A stretch of DNA of 64,000 nucleotides from Bacteroidota bacterium (GCA_050257045.1 JBLMWD010000093.1:21242-85241), one strand, 5' to 3'; numbered from the stretch's first letter, positions 56,848 to 61,124 are shown. A program made the numbers and translations. Notes: a model not told the origin generated them from the letters alone.

Positions 56848-57162
56848 TCAACGCGCCGGCGCGACCGCCGGCCCTTTCCCCACCGATTCCAGCACGATCC
56901 ACGTCGACAGGATCACGAACGTCGCCCTGAGGTCGGCGCCCGGAGCCGCGACGAAGACCACCCAGGCCTGCGCGGCGACGAGCGCGAGGAAGGCCGCCGC
57001 TCGCGCCGCGGCGCCCGGTCCGTGCCGCAGGGCCGCCGCGTAGAGCGCCGCGCCGAGCAGCAGGCCGTGGAACGGAGCGACCCCCCAGCCGCGCGGCGCG
57101 AGGAACGCGAGCGCGAGACCGATCCCCATCGAGAGCGGGAGCATCCAGAGGCGCGCGGCCAT
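56848..57162 (-). CDS. Small hypothetical membrane protein (104 aa, about 3 TM)
   Basis: Track ORF with high GC3. Its ATG lies 3 nt after the upstream lipoprotein stop, which indicates an operon. Confidence 0.5.
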   Translation of the reverse strand: MAARLWMLPLSMGIGLALAFLAPRGWGVAPFHGLLLGAALYAAALRHGPGAAARAAAFLALVAAQAWVVFVAAPGADLRATFVILSTWIVLESVGKGPAVAPAR

Positions 57163-57165
57163 GGC

Positions 57166-57891
57166 TCACTTGCCCCGGATGAAGTCGAGCGCGCACGAAG
57201 CCGCGCCGAGCGCGGCCCCGACCCCGCAACCGATGGCGGCGGCGTGCGGCGATCCGGGCGCGATCTCCGAGGCGATGCTCGAGCCGGCCGCGCACCCGGC
57301 TGGCATCCGATTCGCGAGACAGTCGAACAGCCGCGTCCACGACTTCCGGATCGGGGACCGCAGCGTCCCGCCGGCAGCCTGGACGTAGGCGTCGGCGGAG
57401 CGCACCCAGACGACCTGGTCTCCCCAGACGACGGAGTGGAATCCGATCTCGCTCGGGCCGGGCTCGCGGCCGACGATCATCTCCGCGAACTCGGCCGCCT
57501 CGCTGCCCAGCCCCCGCGCCACCGAGACGAACGCCGCATGGGTCGGATCGGCGGTGGCGTAGGGGAGGATCGTCAGGCCGACCGTCCCGCCGACGTCCGG
57601 GACCTCCCCGACCGCGTGGACCGCGAGGTCGAAGCGGGGCCGGAGCCCTCCGATCGGCGCCTGCGCGAGCGCCCGCTGGACGAGCGGGTTCTTCCCGGCC
57701 GACTGCACCGCGCCCGCGAGCGCCTCCGTCTCCCAGACCCAATGCGCGCTGGTGACCTGTGGTGAATCGGGGAGGGGATTCGGAGCGACCACCCGCCGCT
57801 CGCTGTCTCGCGAGCACGCGCTCGCGAGGACGAGTATCGGAAGGACGGCGGCGAATCCAACGAGGAACCCTGGACGGACGACCCTCTTCAT
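57166..57891 (-). CDS. Hypothetical lipoprotein with a Cys-rich C-terminus
   Basis: Track ORF of 241 aa with a signal peptide and lipobox LASAC. It has no recognised domain. Confidence 0.6.
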   Translation of the reverse strand: MKRVVRPGFLVGFAAVLPILVLASACSRDSERRVVAPNPLPDSPQVTSAHWVWETEALAGAVQSAGKNPLVQRALAQAPIGGLRPRFDLAVHAVGEVPDVGGTVGLTILPYATADPTHAAFVSVARGLGSEAAEFAEMIVGREPGPSEIGFHSVVWGDQVVWVRSADAYVQAAGGTLRSPIRKSWTRLFDCLANRMPAGCAAGSSIASEIAPGSPHAAAIGCGVGAALGAASCALDFIRGK

Positions 57892-58101
57892 GACGGCACC
57901 CCCTTCATGGCGCGCGGCCCGGGCCGCGCGAAGTGGCGCCGAGGATGCGGGAGACGCTGACGCAGAAGCAGGGGGCGTTCCAGTCGTGGCCGTCGACGGG
58001 GGCGGATCGGGGATTGCGGGAATGGAGGTTGTGACCGTTGCGTCGCTCGAACGGAGCGCGGAGCGCCGCCGCGATGCGTCGGAGCGCCGACGCCGCCGAA
58101 A

Positions 58102-60948
58102 CTACGGGAGGATCGACACCCGCTTCCCGAGCGACACCTCGACGCCCGTGTCGGTGGCGTGCGTCCCTTCGGGAACCTTGTGCCAGACGCGCTCGAATCG
58201 TCCCTGCACGGAGAGCGCGGCGTCGCCGAGCCCCGGCAGGCGCAGGAGGGAGATCTGGAGCCGCCCGGTGAGCCGGTCCTCGCTCCGCCCCTGCAGCTCG
58301 TAGTCTCGGGAGATATAGGTGACGAACGGCTGGACGAGGAGGCGGCTCGGCGACGCTTCCCACCGGACCTCGAGCGCGCCCTGGATGGTCATGTCGCGCT
58401 TGCTCACGTCGCGGTTCTCGTCCCGCTCGATGCCGCCCGAGATGGTGCTCGTCACGCCGCCGGGATGGCGGCGCACGGAAACCACGGAGCCCGCGAGCAC
58501 GCGGCGCCGCATGCTCAGCCCCTTGTCATCGTCGAAGGTCCCGAAGTCGAAGCGAGCGGTCGTGCGGCCGCCCATCGCCTCCGACGCGGTGAACTCGGTG
58601 GCGAGGCGGGTCTGGGAGAAATCGGTCTGCGTCCCCTTCTGGCGGATCCGGATGATCGAGGGCGTCACCCAGCTGTCCCGGTTGAGCGCGAGCGTCGCCC
58701 CCGCCGTCATCTTCTCCGCGGTCACCGACGGCGCGCCGGAAGAGGCGTCTTCGGGGCTCTCGCGGCGATAGCCCGCGAAGGCGCGCGACGGGCCCACGCT
58801 ACGGGCGAGATCGGCCGAGAACCCCTTCCGGTCGGAGATCGCGTACGGGTTGAGCGCGGTGGCGAGGGAAGGCTGGTAGCGGAAAGCCTCGGCGCGCGCG
58901 GTGAAGCGCGCGGCCGTGCCGGTGAGCTCGCCGCGCACGCCGGTGCGCGTCCGCCCCGGCTCGACTCCCTCGATCGTGCGGTGGCGCACGGTGACGGCGT
59001 CGCCGAGGAGCGTCCAGTCGTGCGCCACCATCCAGGACGCCGACCCGCCGTAGATCACGCGCGTGCGGGTCGCCGTCTCCAGGCCGCCCGGCGTCGGGTC
59101 CTCGTGGGTGTATCCGCCGTAGAGCGAGGCGCGGAGGCGGTCGGGGACGAACACGCGGGTGAGGCGTGCCGCGTAGAGATCGGAGCGGATCTCGCGCAAG
59201 GGGCCGCCCGCCGAGCGCGGATGCGACTCGACCGCGGCGAAGCCCTCGAAGGTGCCGAGACGGGAATCGCTCAGAAGCGCCTGCGCTCCCCGCCGGGGAA
59301 TGGCGCTTGCGAAGAGCGGCGCGCCGTTCGCGAGCGCCGGGGCGAGGTCGCCCCACTCGAGCGCCGCGCGCTGCGACTGGTACCGGACGAGAACCTGATC
59401 GGGGGAGGCGCTTCCGTTCTTCACGTCGTCGAAGCGTACCCGACTCGTGACGCGCGCCTCGAGGCTCTGGGTTGGCGAGAGCGCGTAGCGGCCGTGGAGC
59501 GCGGCCCAGCCGGTCACGGCGCTCTCCTCCGCGCCGAATGACGAGCGTCCGTCGGCGAGGAACGTGCTCTGGAGATCGAAGCGCGCGCTGTCGGGACTCG
59601 CGGGCGGCGCCGCGGGCCCGCGCGGCGTCAACCCGTTCGCGGGCGGAAGGGAGAGGAACGTGATCGGCTGGGAAGCTACGTTCTGCGGCGACTCCACGAC
59701 GAACTGGAGCCGGTGCTCGCCGAAGCGCCGGGTCGGGATGGGGCCGCGCGTCTCGACCGTGACCGGCCGGCCCGACTCCATGAACCCCTCCTCGACCGCC
59801 ACGACGTCGCCATCCATGTAGAAGACCGACCGGAAATAGCCCGTGCCGTCGCCGATCACGACGGCGCGCGGCCGGAGCGTGTCGCCCGCCCCGAATGCCG
59901 CGCCCGGAAGCGGCCACTCGAGCACGGCGGAGCGGATTACGGCGTTCCCGGCGAGGGATGGGGTGAGCGCGGCGAGCCCGACGCCTCCCGCAAAGGCCTC
60001 GACCTGGTGCGGCGTCCGGGTCTCGTCGATCCCCGAGTAGGTGATGCGGAGCCCGATCCTCCCGTCGGGCGAGCTTCGCGCGAGATCGGGCGGCACCGTC
60101 ACGAGCACGCTCAGGGTCGCCTGCCCGAGGCGCGGGATCACGTAGTCGACCGGCACGGTCTGGTCCACCGCCGGCGCCCCGGCCGTCGTCGTGTCGGGCC
60201 ACATCTGGATGTGCGCCGACGTGATCGTGACCGCGTCGCTCGCGGTTTCCTGGAAGGAGGTTGCGACGGGCGTCGGCTCGCCGGGGACCAGCGTGATGGA
60301 GGCGGGCGCGGAAACCCGCTGCAGCTTCGCGACCGCGATCGTGCGGAAATAGACGATGGGCAGATCCACGGACGCGAGCGTGTCCGGAAGCGGACTGAAG
60401 ACGAGATTCACGCGCATTCCGTGGAGATGCCCGAGCGCCATCGGCTGCACCGGCTTGAGGAAGACGGTGTCGCCGAGCGCCGACCAGGTCGGGGCGTTCA
60501 GCTGGAGGAGCGTCCCTCCGGCCGAGTCGAGGTCCGCGACCGAGAAGATTCCGCGCTTCGAGGTGGGCTCATCGAACACGAAGTAGAGCGTAGCGTCCGG
60601 GAGGATGTGGTCGGAGCCGTCCCGCGGATAGCTGTCGATCATGCGGGGCGCGGTGGCGGTCGAGGCCGACGGCACGGTCTGCGGCGCGCCGGGCCGGGCC
60701 GGCGGCCGGACGCGGGGCTCGGGGAAGGACAATGGGGTTCCCACGGCGGGCCGAAGTCGAGTCGCCCGATCGTCGCGCGAGCCGCCCGGCGCGCGAACCG
60801 CGCTCCTTGGAGCCGGAGGAGCCGCGCCCGCGTCCGCAGGAGCGAGCATCGCGCACATCCAGGCGAGCGCTACCGCCCATGCGACCGGCCGGAGCCGCGC
60901 GAAGACGCGGCGTACCCGCCGGCGCGATGTCGCGGGCTTGCTCGTCAC
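58102..60948 (-). CDS. Large hypothetical secreted/outer-membrane-associated protein (about 950 aa)
   Basis: The track ORF is trimmed to GTG 60948, which is preceded by a GAGGAGG SD. It has a basic n-region followed by a hydrophobic signal peptide (RRRVRRVFARLRPVAWAVALAWMCAMLAPADA). An Ig-like N-terminal region (SYPRDGSDHILPDATLYFVFDEP) is followed by a long region with alternating-hydrophobic beta-strand character. No family is recognised. Confidence 0.55.
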   Translation of the reverse strand: MTSKPATSRRRVRRVFARLRPVAWAVALAWMCAMLAPADAGAAPPAPRSAVRAPGGSRDDRATRLRPAVGTPLSFPEPRVRPPARPGAPQTVPSASTATAPRMIDSYPRDGSDHILPDATLYFVFDEPTSKRGIFSVADLDSAGGTLLQLNAPTWSALGDTVFLKPVQPMALGHLHGMRVNLVFSPLPDTLASVDLPIVYFRTIAVAKLQRVSAPASITLVPGEPTPVATSFQETASDAVTITSAHIQMWPDTTTAGAPAVDQTVPVDYVIPRLGQATLSVLVTVPPDLARSSPDGRIGLRITYSGIDETRTPHQVEAFAGGVGLAALTPSLAGNAVIRSAVLEWPLPGAAFGAGDTLRPRAVVIGDGTGYFRSVFYMDGDVVAVEEGFMESGRPVTVETRGPIPTRRFGEHRLQFVVESPQNVASQPITFLSLPPANGLTPRGPAAPPASPDSARFDLQSTFLADGRSSFGAEESAVTGWAALHGRYALSPTQSLEARVTSRVRFDDVKNGSASPDQVLVRYQSQRAALEWGDLAPALANGAPLFASAIPRRGAQALLSDSRLGTFEGFAAVESHPRSAGGPLREIRSDLYAARLTRVFVPDRLRASLYGGYTHEDPTPGGLETATRTRVIYGGSASWMVAHDWTLLGDAVTVRHRTIEGVEPGRTRTGVRGELTGTAARFTARAEAFRYQPSLATALNPYAISDRKGFSADLARSVGPSRAFAGYRRESPEDASSGAPSVTAEKMTAGATLALNRDSWVTPSIIRIRQKGTQTDFSQTRLATEFTASEAMGGRTTARFDFGTFDDDKGLSMRRRVLAGSVVSVRRHPGGVTSTISGGIERDENRDVSKRDMTIQGALEVRWEASPSRLLVQPFVTYISRDYELQGRSEDRLTGRLQISLLRLPGLGDAALSVQGRFERVWHKVPEGTHATDTGVEVSLGKRVSILP

Positions 60949-61124
60949 GTAGGAGGCCTCCTCGAAGACCGGGAATGGAGTTGCGGGCGCGCGCGCGCGA
61001 ACCGTATCATGGAAGGTCCATGGTGGCAAGAAAGCGAACAGTAGCAACGACTTCGACGCGCCGGCGGACGCCGCGTCCGTCCGCAGGCCGCCCCGTCCAA
61101 TCCGCTCCCGGTCCGGCGCGCAGG

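What the first reader, a model, noticed from the sequence alone, without database searches (positions are those of the whole stretch)
56848..61124. Minus-strand unit encoding a 950-aa uncharacterised secreted protein, a lipoprotein and a small membrane protein, with a palindromic SD-containing divergent promoter shared with asd
Three co-directional genes (60948 to 58102, 57891 to 57166, 57162 to 56848) encode a large signal-peptide protein. It has an Ig-like N-terminal module and an extensive beta-rich body with no family I can assign. With it come a Cys-rich lipoprotein and a 104-aa triple-TM protein separated by only 3 nt. A large outer-membrane-type protein plus a dedicated lipoprotein is reminiscent of LptD/LptE or BAM/TAM-like pairs, but the sequences do not obviously match those. 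The start region contains the 12-bp palindrome AGGAGGCCTCCT (60951..60962), which places an AGGAGG on both strands between this gene and asd.
Basis: partly seen in the sequence, partly recalled or inferred. Interest (0 to 1): 0.5.

Follow-up and report, generated by a model that had tools for sequence, protein, structure and literature searches.

The report
Eisenbacteria-specific outer-membrane barrel plus lipoprotein genes
Three real, always-neighbouring envelope genes found only in the uncultured phylum Candidatus Eisenbacteria encode a very large predicted outer-membrane barrel, a lipoprotein and a small membrane protein. They are a new protein family, not a relative of LptD/LptE, and they are read as two separately controlled units, not one.

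Summary
All three genes exist at the stated coordinates. None matches any Pfam or NCBIfam family.

- **No sequence relatives for the barrel.** A profile search of 1.84 billion proteins found barrel matches only within the family. All distant hits fall on the Ig-like module.
- **Lipoprotein.** It has an invariant lipobox Cys, an alpha/beta domain and a C-terminal helical hairpin with four conserved Cys. It shows no LptE-like match and has no relatives outside the clade.
- **Synteny.** The order asd, barrel, lipoprotein, small protein, lon holds in about 30 Eisenbacteria loci. The small gene is missing in two of them. The whole neighbourhood is equally conserved, so gene order alone does not prove a shared function.
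- **New point.** The lipoprotein and small genes have their own conserved sigma-54-type promoter (57967-57982), downstream of a conserved inverted repeat. The genes therefore form two transcription units.
- **Palindrome.** AGGAGGCCTCCT is real, but only its Shine-Dalgarno half is conserved. It cannot serve asd.

This is a new outer-membrane protein family of unknown function and moderate interest.

The parts
58102..60948 (-). Gene for a 948-aa predicted outer-membrane protein (GTG start, stop included)
   Evidence: ORF. Identical to NCBI ACM3PF_09130. There are 95 homologues at 41% identity or more, nearly all from Candidatus Eisenbacteria MAGs. No Pfam, NCBIfam or PDB sequence match.
60829..60948 (-). 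Signal peptide, about aa 1-40: Arg-rich n-region, hydrophobic core, A-D-A cleavage motif
   Evidence: Read from the sequence. Model helix at residues 21-34. Relatives carry Sec-type signal peptides at the same place. The cleavage site is inferred.
60661..60828 (-). Disordered, poorly conserved Pro/Ala/Arg-rich linker (aa 41-96)
   Evidence: pLDDT below 50 for residues 31-96. Mean column conservation 0.16.
59644..60651 (-). Three Ig-like beta-sandwich domains (aa 100-215, 220-330, 337-435), inferred to be periplasmic
58108..59580 (-). About 26 beta-strands forming one barrel (aa 457-947), with short loops and a conserved Arg/Asp/Glu-lined lumen face
57166..57891 (-). Gene for a 241-aa lipoprotein: lipobox Cys26, alpha/beta domain (aa 48-178), and a C-terminal Gly/Ala-rich helical hairpin (aa 186-239, nt 57175-57336) with four conserved Cys
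56848..57162 (-). Gene for a 104-aa small membrane protein with four hydrophobic segments, 3 nt downstream of the lipoprotein gene
   Evidence: Present in most loci and absent in L009 and L010. Its divergence tracks the lipoprotein's (partial r 0.52).
57967..57982 (-). Sigma-54-type promoter TGGAACGCCCCCTGCT (GG-N10-GC) about 75-90 nt upstream of the lipoprotein ATG
   Evidence: GG, TGC and the spacing are invariant in the alignment of 19 loci. The motif sits at the same position in about 30 loci. The pattern TGGNAYG-N5-TGCW occurs twice in the 64-kb window against 0.12 expected. Its function is inferred.
57892..57955 (-). Conserved leader of the lipoprotein mRNA: CTCCTCGGCGCC, a GC hairpin, then GGGGGTGCCGTC before the ATG. 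Anti-SD/SD pairing is possible.
   Evidence: RNAalifold pairs GCUCCU with AGGGGU, with two compensatory pairs. My alternative structure shows no covariation. No Rfam match.
58077..58092 (.). Conserved inverted repeat CGTCG-N6-CGACG, 9 nt after the barrel gene's stop codon and about 110 nt upstream of the sigma-54-type promoter
   Evidence: Found 0-107 nt after the stop in about 29 of 33 loci, with arms conserved in sequence and no covariation. The loose pattern itself is common in this GC-rich DNA. Whether it acts as a terminator-like hairpin or as an activator-binding site is unresolved.
60951..60962 (.). Palindrome AGGAGGCCTCCT. The minus-strand AGGAGG (60957-60962) is the Shine-Dalgarno of the barrel gene.
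   Evidence: Only GAGGAG(G) is conserved in L004-L007 and L009, and the CCTCCT half is specific to the window.
60945..61010 (-). 21-codon upstream ORF (MIRFARARPQLHSRSSRRPPT*) whose TGA stop overlaps the GTG start of the barrel gene (GTGA)
   Evidence: The ATGATAC motif is conserved in most loci. In L003, L015, L018, L024, L025 and L033 the barrel ORF itself is open from this ATG.
60981..61047 (.). Conserved asd/barrel head-to-head core. On the asd strand: TTGCGG (60981-60986), an 18-nt spacer, TATCAT (61005-61010), 9 nt, then the asd ATG (61020). On the barrel strand: TTGCCA (61029-61024), 17 nt, then TG-n-TACGGT (61006-61001).
   Evidence: Alignment by eye of 28 loci. The consensus scan found no canonical sigma-70 site. 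Promoter roles are inferred.

Best explanation
This stretch holds two adjacent envelope modules that occur only in Candidatus Eisenbacteria.

**Module 1: the barrel protein.** The 948-aa protein is exported by a Sec-type signal peptide. It is predicted to insert into the outer membrane as a single barrel of about 26 strands. Three Ig-like domains and a disordered N-terminal tail are predicted to hang into the periplasm. The external loops are short (16 residues or fewer). The lumen face carries many invariant Arg, Asp and Glu residues. A barrel of this size with such short loops cannot close itself, so I infer that it is a gated or plugged translocon or channel rather than an open porin. It would be occluded either by a partner protein or by its own highly conserved third Ig-like domain.

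**Module 2: the lipoprotein and small protein.** These two genes form a bicistronic operon driven by its own sigma-54-type promoter. A conserved inverted repeat lies upstream, and the leader may mask the ribosome-binding site. The operon encodes a lipoprotein with an alpha/beta domain and a disulfide-stapled, glycine-zipper-like helical hairpin, and a four-helix small membrane protein.

**Most likely working model.** The lipoprotein is a conditionally expressed accessory of the neighbouring barrel. It could act as a plug or lid, or as a SlyB-like lateral guard. The small protein would be its inner-membrane partner.

**Shown and inferred.** Shown: the gene structures, the domain architecture and strand count of the model, the clade restriction, the synteny and the conserved promoter-like motifs. 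Inferred: the membrane topology, the need for a plug, any physical barrel-lipoprotein contact, sigma-54 dependence and the substrate.
For: **Architecture and fold**
- Architecture and strand count come from the AF2 model.
- Loop lengths alternate long and short in a way that places the N-terminal domains in the periplasm.
- The conserved lumen-facing positions include 15 Arg and 8 Asp or Glu.

**Clade restriction**
- Barrel.
- Lipoprotein.

**Gene order**
- The barrel gene is followed by the lipoprotein gene in every locus with room downstream, down to 30% lipoprotein identity.
- The order survives a sulfatase insertion next to it (L002) and a tandem duplication of the lipoprotein gene (L010).

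**Lipoprotein features**
- C200 and C222 are lost together while C191 and C233 are kept, which fits two disulfides across the hairpin.

**Separate transcription unit**
- The sigma-54-type motif has invariant GG/GC positions and spacing in about 30 loci.
- It occurs only twice in the window against 0.12 expected.
- The other copy is a near-consensus TGGCACG-N4-CTGCT upstream of lon that is also conserved across the clade. This indicates that the lineage uses sigma-54 promoters.
- The lipoprotein and small genes are 3 nt apart and co-vary (partial r 0.52).
Against: - No complex was modelled and there are no experimental data. Contact between the barrel and the lipoprotein is unproven.
- The mirror-tree partial correlation between barrel and lipoprotein is 0.10, no better than the controls.
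- The whole block from the histidine phosphatase gene and asd to lon is as syntenic as the trio. Adjacency may therefore reflect only slow rearrangement in this region near the replication origin.
- Separate promoters argue against strict co-expression.
- The small gene is dispensable in two lineages.
- The barrel-lipid face is only weakly hydrophobic in several strands.
- The model rests on 36 fairly similar sequences, with pTM 0.59.
- I could not inspect model coordinates, so I do not know whether an Ig-like domain already sits inside the barrel.
- rpoN and an enhancer-binding activator were not looked for in these genomes.
Confidence: 0.35

Rival explanations
1. The barrel gene and the lipoprotein-small operon are functionally independent neighbours. 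The barrel would be a self-plugged channel, for example for nutrient uptake or polymer export, closed by its own third Ig-like domain. The sigma-54-driven lipoprotein and small membrane protein would be a separate envelope-stress or maintenance module, loosely comparable to SlyB or the sigma-54-dependent psp operon.
For: - The lipoprotein-small operon has its own conserved sigma-54-type promoter and leader.
- There is no co-evolution signal between barrel and lipoprotein, whereas the lipoprotein and small protein co-vary.
- The whole region is syntenic.
- Distant proteins that share the Ig-like cassette have no such lipoprotein neighbour (P0162).
Against: - Both families have exactly the same narrow distribution and are always adjacent.
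- The pair stays together through local rearrangements.
Confidence: 0.3
2. The pair is the Eisenbacterial LPS translocon: a divergent or analogous LptD/LptE in which the Ig-like domains replace the OstA jellyroll.
For: - A lipoprotein of similar size is encoded next door.
- The locus belongs to the conserved core of the genome.
Against: - No match to the LptD, OstA or LptE models even at E <= 1.
- The N-terminal domains are Ig/CopC/FN3-like, not a jellyroll.
- MtrB and the ushers score higher than LptD.
- A sigma-54-regulated plug would be odd for an essential constitutive machine.
- Whether these genomes carry a canonical lptD was not tested.
Confidence: 0.07
3. The barrel is an MtrB/PioB-like sheath for extracellular electron transfer, or a usher-like fibre-secretion pore.
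Against: - Sequence identity is 7-13% and TM-scores are 0.43 or lower, which is generic barrel similarity.
- No hit to the MtrB_PioB or Usher Pfam models.
- The lipoprotein has no CxxCH haem motif, and no cytochrome or chaperone gene lies in the conserved neighbourhood.
Confidence: 0.05
4. The palindrome AGGAGGCCTCCT is a functional bidirectional element, acting as a shared divergent promoter or as a Shine-Dalgarno for both the barrel gene and asd.
For: It is unique in the window against 0.03 expected. It lies between the two genes. In L004 a related GAGGAG-N6-CTCCT could form a hairpin that masks the Shine-Dalgarno.
Against: - The CCTCCT half is absent from relatives at 73-75% identity, and the whole element is absent from the more distant loci.
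- The plus-strand AGGAGG is 63 nt from the conserved asd start at 61020.
- asd instead has a conserved TTGCGG-18-TATCAT-9-ATG arrangement.
Confidence: 0.05

Closest known systems
LptD-LptE lipopolysaccharide translocon
   Same: An outer-membrane barrel of about 26 strands with an N-terminal periplasmic beta-rich extension, and a lipoprotein of about 20 kDa encoded alongside that could sit in the lumen.
   Different: No sequence or profile similarity. The extension is made of Ig-like domains instead of the OstA jellyroll. The lipoprotein fold is not LptE-like and carries a Cys-stapled helical hairpin. The lipoprotein gene has its own sigma-54-type promoter.
MtrB of the MtrCAB electron conduit (PDB 6r2q_B)
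   Different: Only 7% identity and no MtrB_PioB profile hit. No multihaem cytochromes are encoded nearby. MtrB has no Ig-like N-terminal domains.
Chaperone-usher pore (FimD/PapC)
   Different: Ushers have 24 strands, with the plug inserted within the barrel sequence and Ig-like domains at the C-terminus. They work with PapD-like chaperones and pilins, which are absent here. No Usher profile hit.
Glycine-zipper outer-membrane lipoproteins SlyB and TraT
   Different: No profile similarity to the Gly-zipper families. This protein has an extra 130-residue alpha/beta domain and two predicted disulfides across the hairpin. Oligomerisation is unknown.
Ig-cassette large outer-membrane-like proteins of other phyla (P0157, P0162, P0176; 1100-1200 aa, uncharacterised)
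   Same: Homologous N-terminal module of three Ig-like domains (hhalign 97.7%) followed by a long beta-rich C-terminal region. In P0157 and P0176 this ends in an outer-membrane-protein-style terminal Phe.
   Different: Their C-terminal regions are not detectably related to this barrel. They carry extra domains, and the one locus examined (P0162) has no lipoprotein or small-protein neighbour.

Membership tests
LptD (PF04453 LptD / PF03968 OstA) | Significant match to the LptD barrel and OstA N-terminal profiles | tested here: not met
   hmmscan against Pfam and NCBIfam at E <= 1 gives no LptD or OstA hit. phmmer against PDB sequences gives nothing relevant.
LptD (PF04453 LptD / PF03968 OstA) | N-terminal periplasmic beta-jellyroll that joins the Lpt bridge | tested here: not met
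LptD (PF04453 LptD / PF03968 OstA) | 26-strand barrel | tested here: met
LptE (PF04390) | Lipoprotein with the LptE fold or profile that plugs LptD | tested here: not met
MtrB/PioB (PF11854) | Profile match, and linkage to decahaem cytochromes (CxxCH-rich MtrA/MtrC) | tested here: not met
   No Pfam hit. The lipoprotein has no CxxCH motif. No cytochrome genes in the syntenic loci. The only support is generic fold similarity.
Fimbrial usher (PF00577) | Usher profile, an internal plug domain, and adjacent PapD-like chaperone and pilin genes | tested here: not met
Omp85 (BamA/TamA, PF01103 with POTRA) | POTRA repeats followed by a 16-strand barrel | tested here: not met
Bacterial lipoprotein (Lgt/LspA substrates) | Signal peptide ending in a lipobox with an invariant Cys | tested here: met
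   L-(A/T/S/G)-(S/A/G)-C, with Cys26 invariant in 22 and in 27 sequences. Lipidation itself is not testable here.
Glycine-zipper OM lipoproteins (SlyB/Pcp; PF13488, PF05433) | Profile match to the Gly-zipper families | tested here: not met
Sigma-54-dependent promoter | TGGCAC-N5-TTGCW-like element with GG and GC exactly one helical turn apart, conserved upstream of the gene | tested here: met
   TGGAACG-N4-nTGC[TA] with invariant GG, TGC and spacing. Two matches in the window against 0.12 expected.
Sigma-54-dependent promoter | rpoN and a cognate enhancer-binding activator in the genome, and a transcript 5' end about 12 nt downstream of the GC | not tested
A second conserved consensus sigma-54 site upstream of lon makes sigma-54 use likely.
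gfcABCD / yjbEFGH exopolysaccharide module (PF06082 YjbH, PF11102 YjbF) | Profile matches to the YjbH barrel and the YjbF lipoprotein | tested here: not met
   No Pfam hit. GfcD is described as a two-barrel protein (PMC11494523), whereas this model aligns over 435 residues to a single 26-strand barrel.

The most novel reading that the evidence does not exclude
The barrel and the sigma-54-induced lipoprotein, with the small inner-membrane protein as an assembly or anchoring factor, would form a previously unknown, phylum-specific outer-membrane translocon. The Cys-stapled glycine-zipper lipoprotein would gate or plug a 26-strand, Arg-lined barrel on demand. That would be a third independent solution, after LptDE and MtrCAB, to filling a 26-strand barrel. 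It might export an anionic polymer or be the lineage's own LPS or lipid insertion device.
Probability: 0.15. Interest if true: 0.7.

Novelty: new variant of a known kind. Interest (0 to 1): 0.42.

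Why it matters
Very large outer-membrane barrels are rare. The solved 26-strand examples, LptD and MtrB, each define a major envelope machine and each hold a partner protein inside the barrel.

This locus adds a core-genome barrel of that size. It is restricted to one phylum, has no sequence relatives, carries a new domain arrangement and always sits next to a new kind of lipoprotein. 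It is a concrete candidate for an undescribed envelope machine in the uncultured Candidatus Eisenbacteria, a soil and sediment phylum.

The locus also gives a clean test case for sigma-54 control of envelope lipoproteins. If the lipoprotein turns out to be unrelated to the barrel, the result is still a useful structural annotation of about 100 'hypothetical proteins'.

Tried and rejected
- **Family searches.** Pfam, NCBIfam and PDB sequence searches on all three proteins found nothing.
- **Fold libraries.** The AFDB50 Foldseek library was unavailable, so only PDB libraries were used.
- **Structure jobs.** It was rerun with alignment A4.
- **Genomic context.** The look-up for the window's own protein found no record.
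- **RNA and signal scans.** Rfam gave no hit at gathering threshold for the whole window or at E <= 1 for 53400-61200. The consensus scan found no sigma-70 promoter or intrinsic terminator in 56500-61400.
- **Barrel-lipoprotein gap.** It folds less stably than shuffled sequence (z +2.46).
- **Mirror-tree test.** The first run used an out-of-frame Lon query. The corrected run gives no barrel-lipoprotein signal.
- **Leader structure.** My proposed pairing UCGGCGCCC/GGGUGCCGA is 87% paired but shows no covariation.
- **Shared regulator idea.** I tested whether the inverted repeat CGTCG-N6-CGACG also precedes the lon-side sigma-54 promoter. It is not conserved there (2 of 24 loci).
- **Inverted-repeat pattern.** The loose pattern is not over-represented in the window (16 found, 15 expected). 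Only its position is conserved.
- **Barrel homology to P0162.** hhalign aligns only the Ig-like module.
- **GfcD/YjbH analogy.** Considered because of the small-protein, lipoprotein and barrel gene set. Dropped because there is no profile hit and GfcD is a two-barrel protein.
- **Literature.** Papers on Eisenbacteria and the outer membrane mention only Cyc2-type iron oxidases, which are not relevant here.

Full report
**1. The observation**

The three minus-strand ORFs are present as described: 58102-60948, 57166-57891 and 56848-57162.
- The 948-aa and 241-aa products match NCBI MAG proteins ACM3PF_09130 and ACM3PF_09125 exactly.
- The GTG at 60948 has AGGAGG 8 nt upstream.
- AGGAGGCCTCCT occurs once in the window, at 60951-60962, against 0.03 expected.
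- The lipoprotein and small genes are 3 nt apart.
- The window has 70% G+C. It is a core region near the replication origin, carrying yidC, dnaA, gyrB, gyrA, mfd, SurA-like chaperones and lon.

**2. The large protein**

No Pfam, NCBIfam or PDB sequence match exists at E <= 1.

A word-indexed search found 95 homologues, all at 41% identity or more. Almost all carry Candidatus Eisenbacteria labels, and a few are recorded with PF13205 Big_5.

An AlphaFold2 model built from 36 family members has pLDDT 76.4 and pTM 0.59. It shows:
- a signal-peptide helix;
- a disordered Pro/Ala/Arg-rich segment, residues 31-96;
- three beta-sandwich domains, at about residues 100-215, 220-330 and 337-435;
- 26 beta-strands between residues 457 and 947.

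Connections after odd-numbered strands are mostly the longer ones, but none exceeds 16 residues. Connections after even-numbered strands are 2-8 residues long. By the usual rule for outer-membrane proteins, this puts the N-terminal domains in the periplasm. It also leaves no long loop that could close the pore. Both points are inferences.

- many porins and TonB-dependent receptors;

Foldseek gives only generic barrel hits with TM of 0.43 or lower. The 435-residue alignment to a 26-strand barrel argues for one large barrel. It argues against two smaller barrels of the kind described for GfcD (PMC11494523).

Within the strands, conserved positions on the polar face include 15 Arg and 8 Asp or Glu. 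The third Ig-like domain is the most conserved part of the protein.

**3. How far the family reaches**

I ran an exhaustive profile search of 1.84 billion representative proteins.
- The barrel half matched only family members and their fragments.
- Every distant hit (E between 1e-21 and 1e-5) matched the Ig-like region.
- These hits are mostly proteins of 1000-1500 aa. Several carry Big_5 plus an unassigned beta-rich C-terminal part, and two of the five I read end in an outer-membrane-protein-style terminal Phe.

hhalign confirms homology of the whole three-domain cassette to P0162 (97.7%) but not of the barrel. The P0162 locus has no comparable lipoprotein neighbour.

A scan of GTDB species representatives returned 31 loci. 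Most are labelled Eisenbacteria. A few MAG labels name other phyla, yet those loci show the same synteny. These odd labels, including the window's own 'Bacteroidota', are probably binning or taxonomy noise. This is an inference.

**4. The lipoprotein and the small protein**

The lipoprotein has these features:
- Cys26 is invariant and sits in a lipobox. Four further Cys (C191, C200, C222, C233) are conserved.
- The model (pLDDT 76.6) has a flexible tether, an alpha/beta domain (residues 48-178) and a C-terminal helical hairpin (186-210 and 215-239). The hairpin is Gly/Ala-rich and carries the four Cys.
- In locus L010 the gene is duplicated in tandem. Both copies have lost C200 and C222 together while keeping C191 and C233. 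This fits two disulfides across the hairpin.
- A profile search found only in-family proteins, all at E <= 1e-44.

The small protein has four hydrophobic segments. Relatives have a basic loop between the second and third segments.

**5. Synteny and co-evolution**

The order histidine phosphatase gene, asd, then (on the opposite strand) barrel, lipoprotein and small-protein genes, then lon holds in every locus with enough sequence. This includes lineages where the lipoprotein is only about 30% identical.

There are three exceptions:
- the small gene is absent in L009 and L010;
- the lipoprotein gene is duplicated in L010;
- a sulfatase gene is inserted between the small gene and lon in L002 and L012.

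All the neighbours are equally syntenic, so adjacency alone cannot show a functional link. I therefore compared divergence patterns between the genes.

| Gene | Mean Kimura distance |
|---|---|
| Barrel | 0.80 |
| Lipoprotein | 1.34 |
| Small protein | 1.37 |
| asd, lon, histidine phosphatase | 0.22-0.33 |

| Pair, controlling for asd and lon | Partial correlation |
|---|---|
| Barrel-lipoprotein | 0.10 |
| Lipoprotein-small protein | 0.52 |
| Pairs with the histidine phosphatase control | -0.21 to 0.14 |

An earlier run used an out-of-frame Lon query and is superseded.

**6. Transcription signals: the main correction to the finding**

The 210-nt gap between the barrel and lipoprotein genes contains three conserved elements.

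(a) An inverted repeat, CGTCG-N6-CGACG, lies at 58077-58092 in the window, 0-107 nt after the barrel gene's stop codon, in about 29 of 33 loci. The arms are conserved in sequence and show no covariation. It could be a terminator-like hairpin or a binding site for a dimeric regulator. Its distance of 58-123 nt upstream of the next element would suit an activator site.

(b) A sigma-54-type promoter lies at 57967-57982 on the minus strand.
- Its form is TGGAACG-N4-nTGC[TA], with invariant GG, TGC and spacing.
- The pattern TGGNAYG-N5-TGCW occurs only twice in the 64-kb window against 0.12 expected.
- The other copy, at 53647-53662, is a near-consensus TGGCACGACGGCTGCT upstream of lon and is conserved across the clade. 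Sigma-54 promoters therefore appear to be in use in this lineage.

(c) A conserved leader of about 65 nt follows.
- An anti-SD-like CUCCU could pair with the ribosome-binding site. RNAalifold finds two compensatory pairs.
- My alternative pairing shows no covariation.
- There is no Rfam match.

The lipoprotein and small genes are therefore most likely a separate, regulated operon.

**7. The asd side**

The palindrome is not conserved.
- Closer relatives (at least 60% identity: L004-L007, L009) keep only GAGGAG(G) before their start codon.
- More distant loci lack it altogether.

What is conserved in almost all loci is a core of about 45 nt. It contains the asd start codon (61020 in the window) and, 9 nt away on the other strand, ATGATAC.
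- asd begins with a conserved MV[SA]RKR extension, so it does not start at 61125.
- In six loci the barrel ORF is open from that ATG.
- In the window the ATG starts a 21-codon upstream ORF. Its TGA stop overlaps the GTG start of the barrel gene, giving GTGA.
- On the asd strand the arrangement TTGCGG, 18 nt, TATCAT, 9 nt, ATG suggests a leaderless or nearly leaderless asd mRNA.
- On the barrel strand, TTGCCA, 17 nt, TG-n-TACGGT is a possible promoter.
- These promoter assignments are inferences. The consensus scan found nothing.

**8. Interpretation**

The barrel is large and has short loops, and its lumen face is lined with invariant charged residues. The solved 26-strand barrels, LptD and MtrB, each hold a partner protein. 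These points make a plugged translocon or gated channel the most likely kind of device.

The always-adjacent, equally clade-restricted lipoprotein is the obvious candidate partner. Against this stand its separate sigma-54-type promoter, the lack of a co-evolution signal and the general synteny of the region. Together they keep an 'independent neighbours' reading almost as likely.

Membership of the LptD/LptE, MtrB, usher, Omp85 and GfcD/YjbH families was tested and is not met. The similarity to LptDE is one of architecture only.

**9. Verdict**

This is a real, conserved and previously undescribed outer-membrane protein family, with an associated new lipoprotein family, in an uncultured phylum. 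The structural annotation is now fairly clear. The function and the partnership remain open. The novelty class is a new variant of a known kind, and the interest is moderate.

Noticed in passing
window 53647-53983 (+), upstream of lon: A near-consensus sigma-54 promoter, TGGCACGACGGCTGCT, sits in an AT-richer intergenic region. It is followed by two tandem 28-codon ORFs (MSAIAIAILLALFSATAFDNTGGGKAGW* and VAATAILILLALFGATALDNTGGGKAGW*). The promoter and one or two hydrophobic mini-ORFs ending in an invariant GGKAGW* are conserved upstream of lon in about 25 Eisenbacteria loci. JGI even called them as 24- and 25-aa genes in L038. Their function is unknown.
   Followed up: partly
window 60945-61022: asd and the barrel gene are arranged head to head. 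The asd ATG (61020) and a conserved ATGATAC (61010) lie 9 nt apart on opposite strands. In six related loci the barrel ORF starts at that ATG. In the window it opens a 21-codon upstream ORF whose stop overlaps the GTG start (GTGA). Each gene's promoter must therefore lie inside or against the other's 5' end.
   Followed up: partly
window 61020-61125 (+): asd probably starts at 61020 with a conserved basic extension (MVARKRTVATTSTRRR...), not at the MGVAVLGATG methionine at 61125. The extension and its AT-rich first codons are kept in all loci examined.
   Followed up: partly
L010 2396-3914; L009 9660-9685: In L010 the lipoprotein gene is duplicated in tandem. Both copies lost the inner Cys pair (C200 and C222) together and kept the outer pair. 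The small membrane-protein gene is absent in both L009 and L010.
   Followed up: yes
proteins P0157, P0162, P0176 (locus L036 for P0162): The three-Ig-domain cassette, especially the third domain with its G-x-G-x-G...DG...GEHRL motif, recurs at the N-terminus of 1000-1500-aa proteins from other lineages. Two of those read end in an outer-membrane-protein-like C-terminal Phe. This may be a wider class of 'Ig-cassette plus large barrel' outer-membrane proteins that Pfam has not described.
   Followed up: partly
window 58077-58092 and the equivalent position in about 29 loci: The inverted repeat CGTCG-N6-CGACG just after the barrel gene's stop codon is conserved in sequence without covariation. 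This pattern fits a protein-binding site, for example for the sigma-54 activator, better than a plain terminator.
   Followed up: partly
window 28667-28680 (+): A third GGAACG-N5-TGC match lies about 70 nt upstream of the dnaA ORF. It is probably chance: 3 matches against 0.86 expected for this looser pattern.
   Followed up: no
record titles of L005, L010, L015, L016, L023, L033 and of the window's own proteins: NCBI labels for several MAGs with this locus name other phyla: Bacteroidota, Omnitrophota, Hyphomicrobiales, Acidobacteriota, Limnocylindrales, Binatia and Dormiibacterota. All share the Eisenbacteria synteny and 43-75% identity, which points to mislabelled or contaminated bins.
   Followed up: no
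L002 12249-14621 (same in L012): A 790-aa sulfatase gene is inserted between the small membrane-protein gene and lon. This is one of the few breaks in an otherwise rigid gene order.
   Followed up: no
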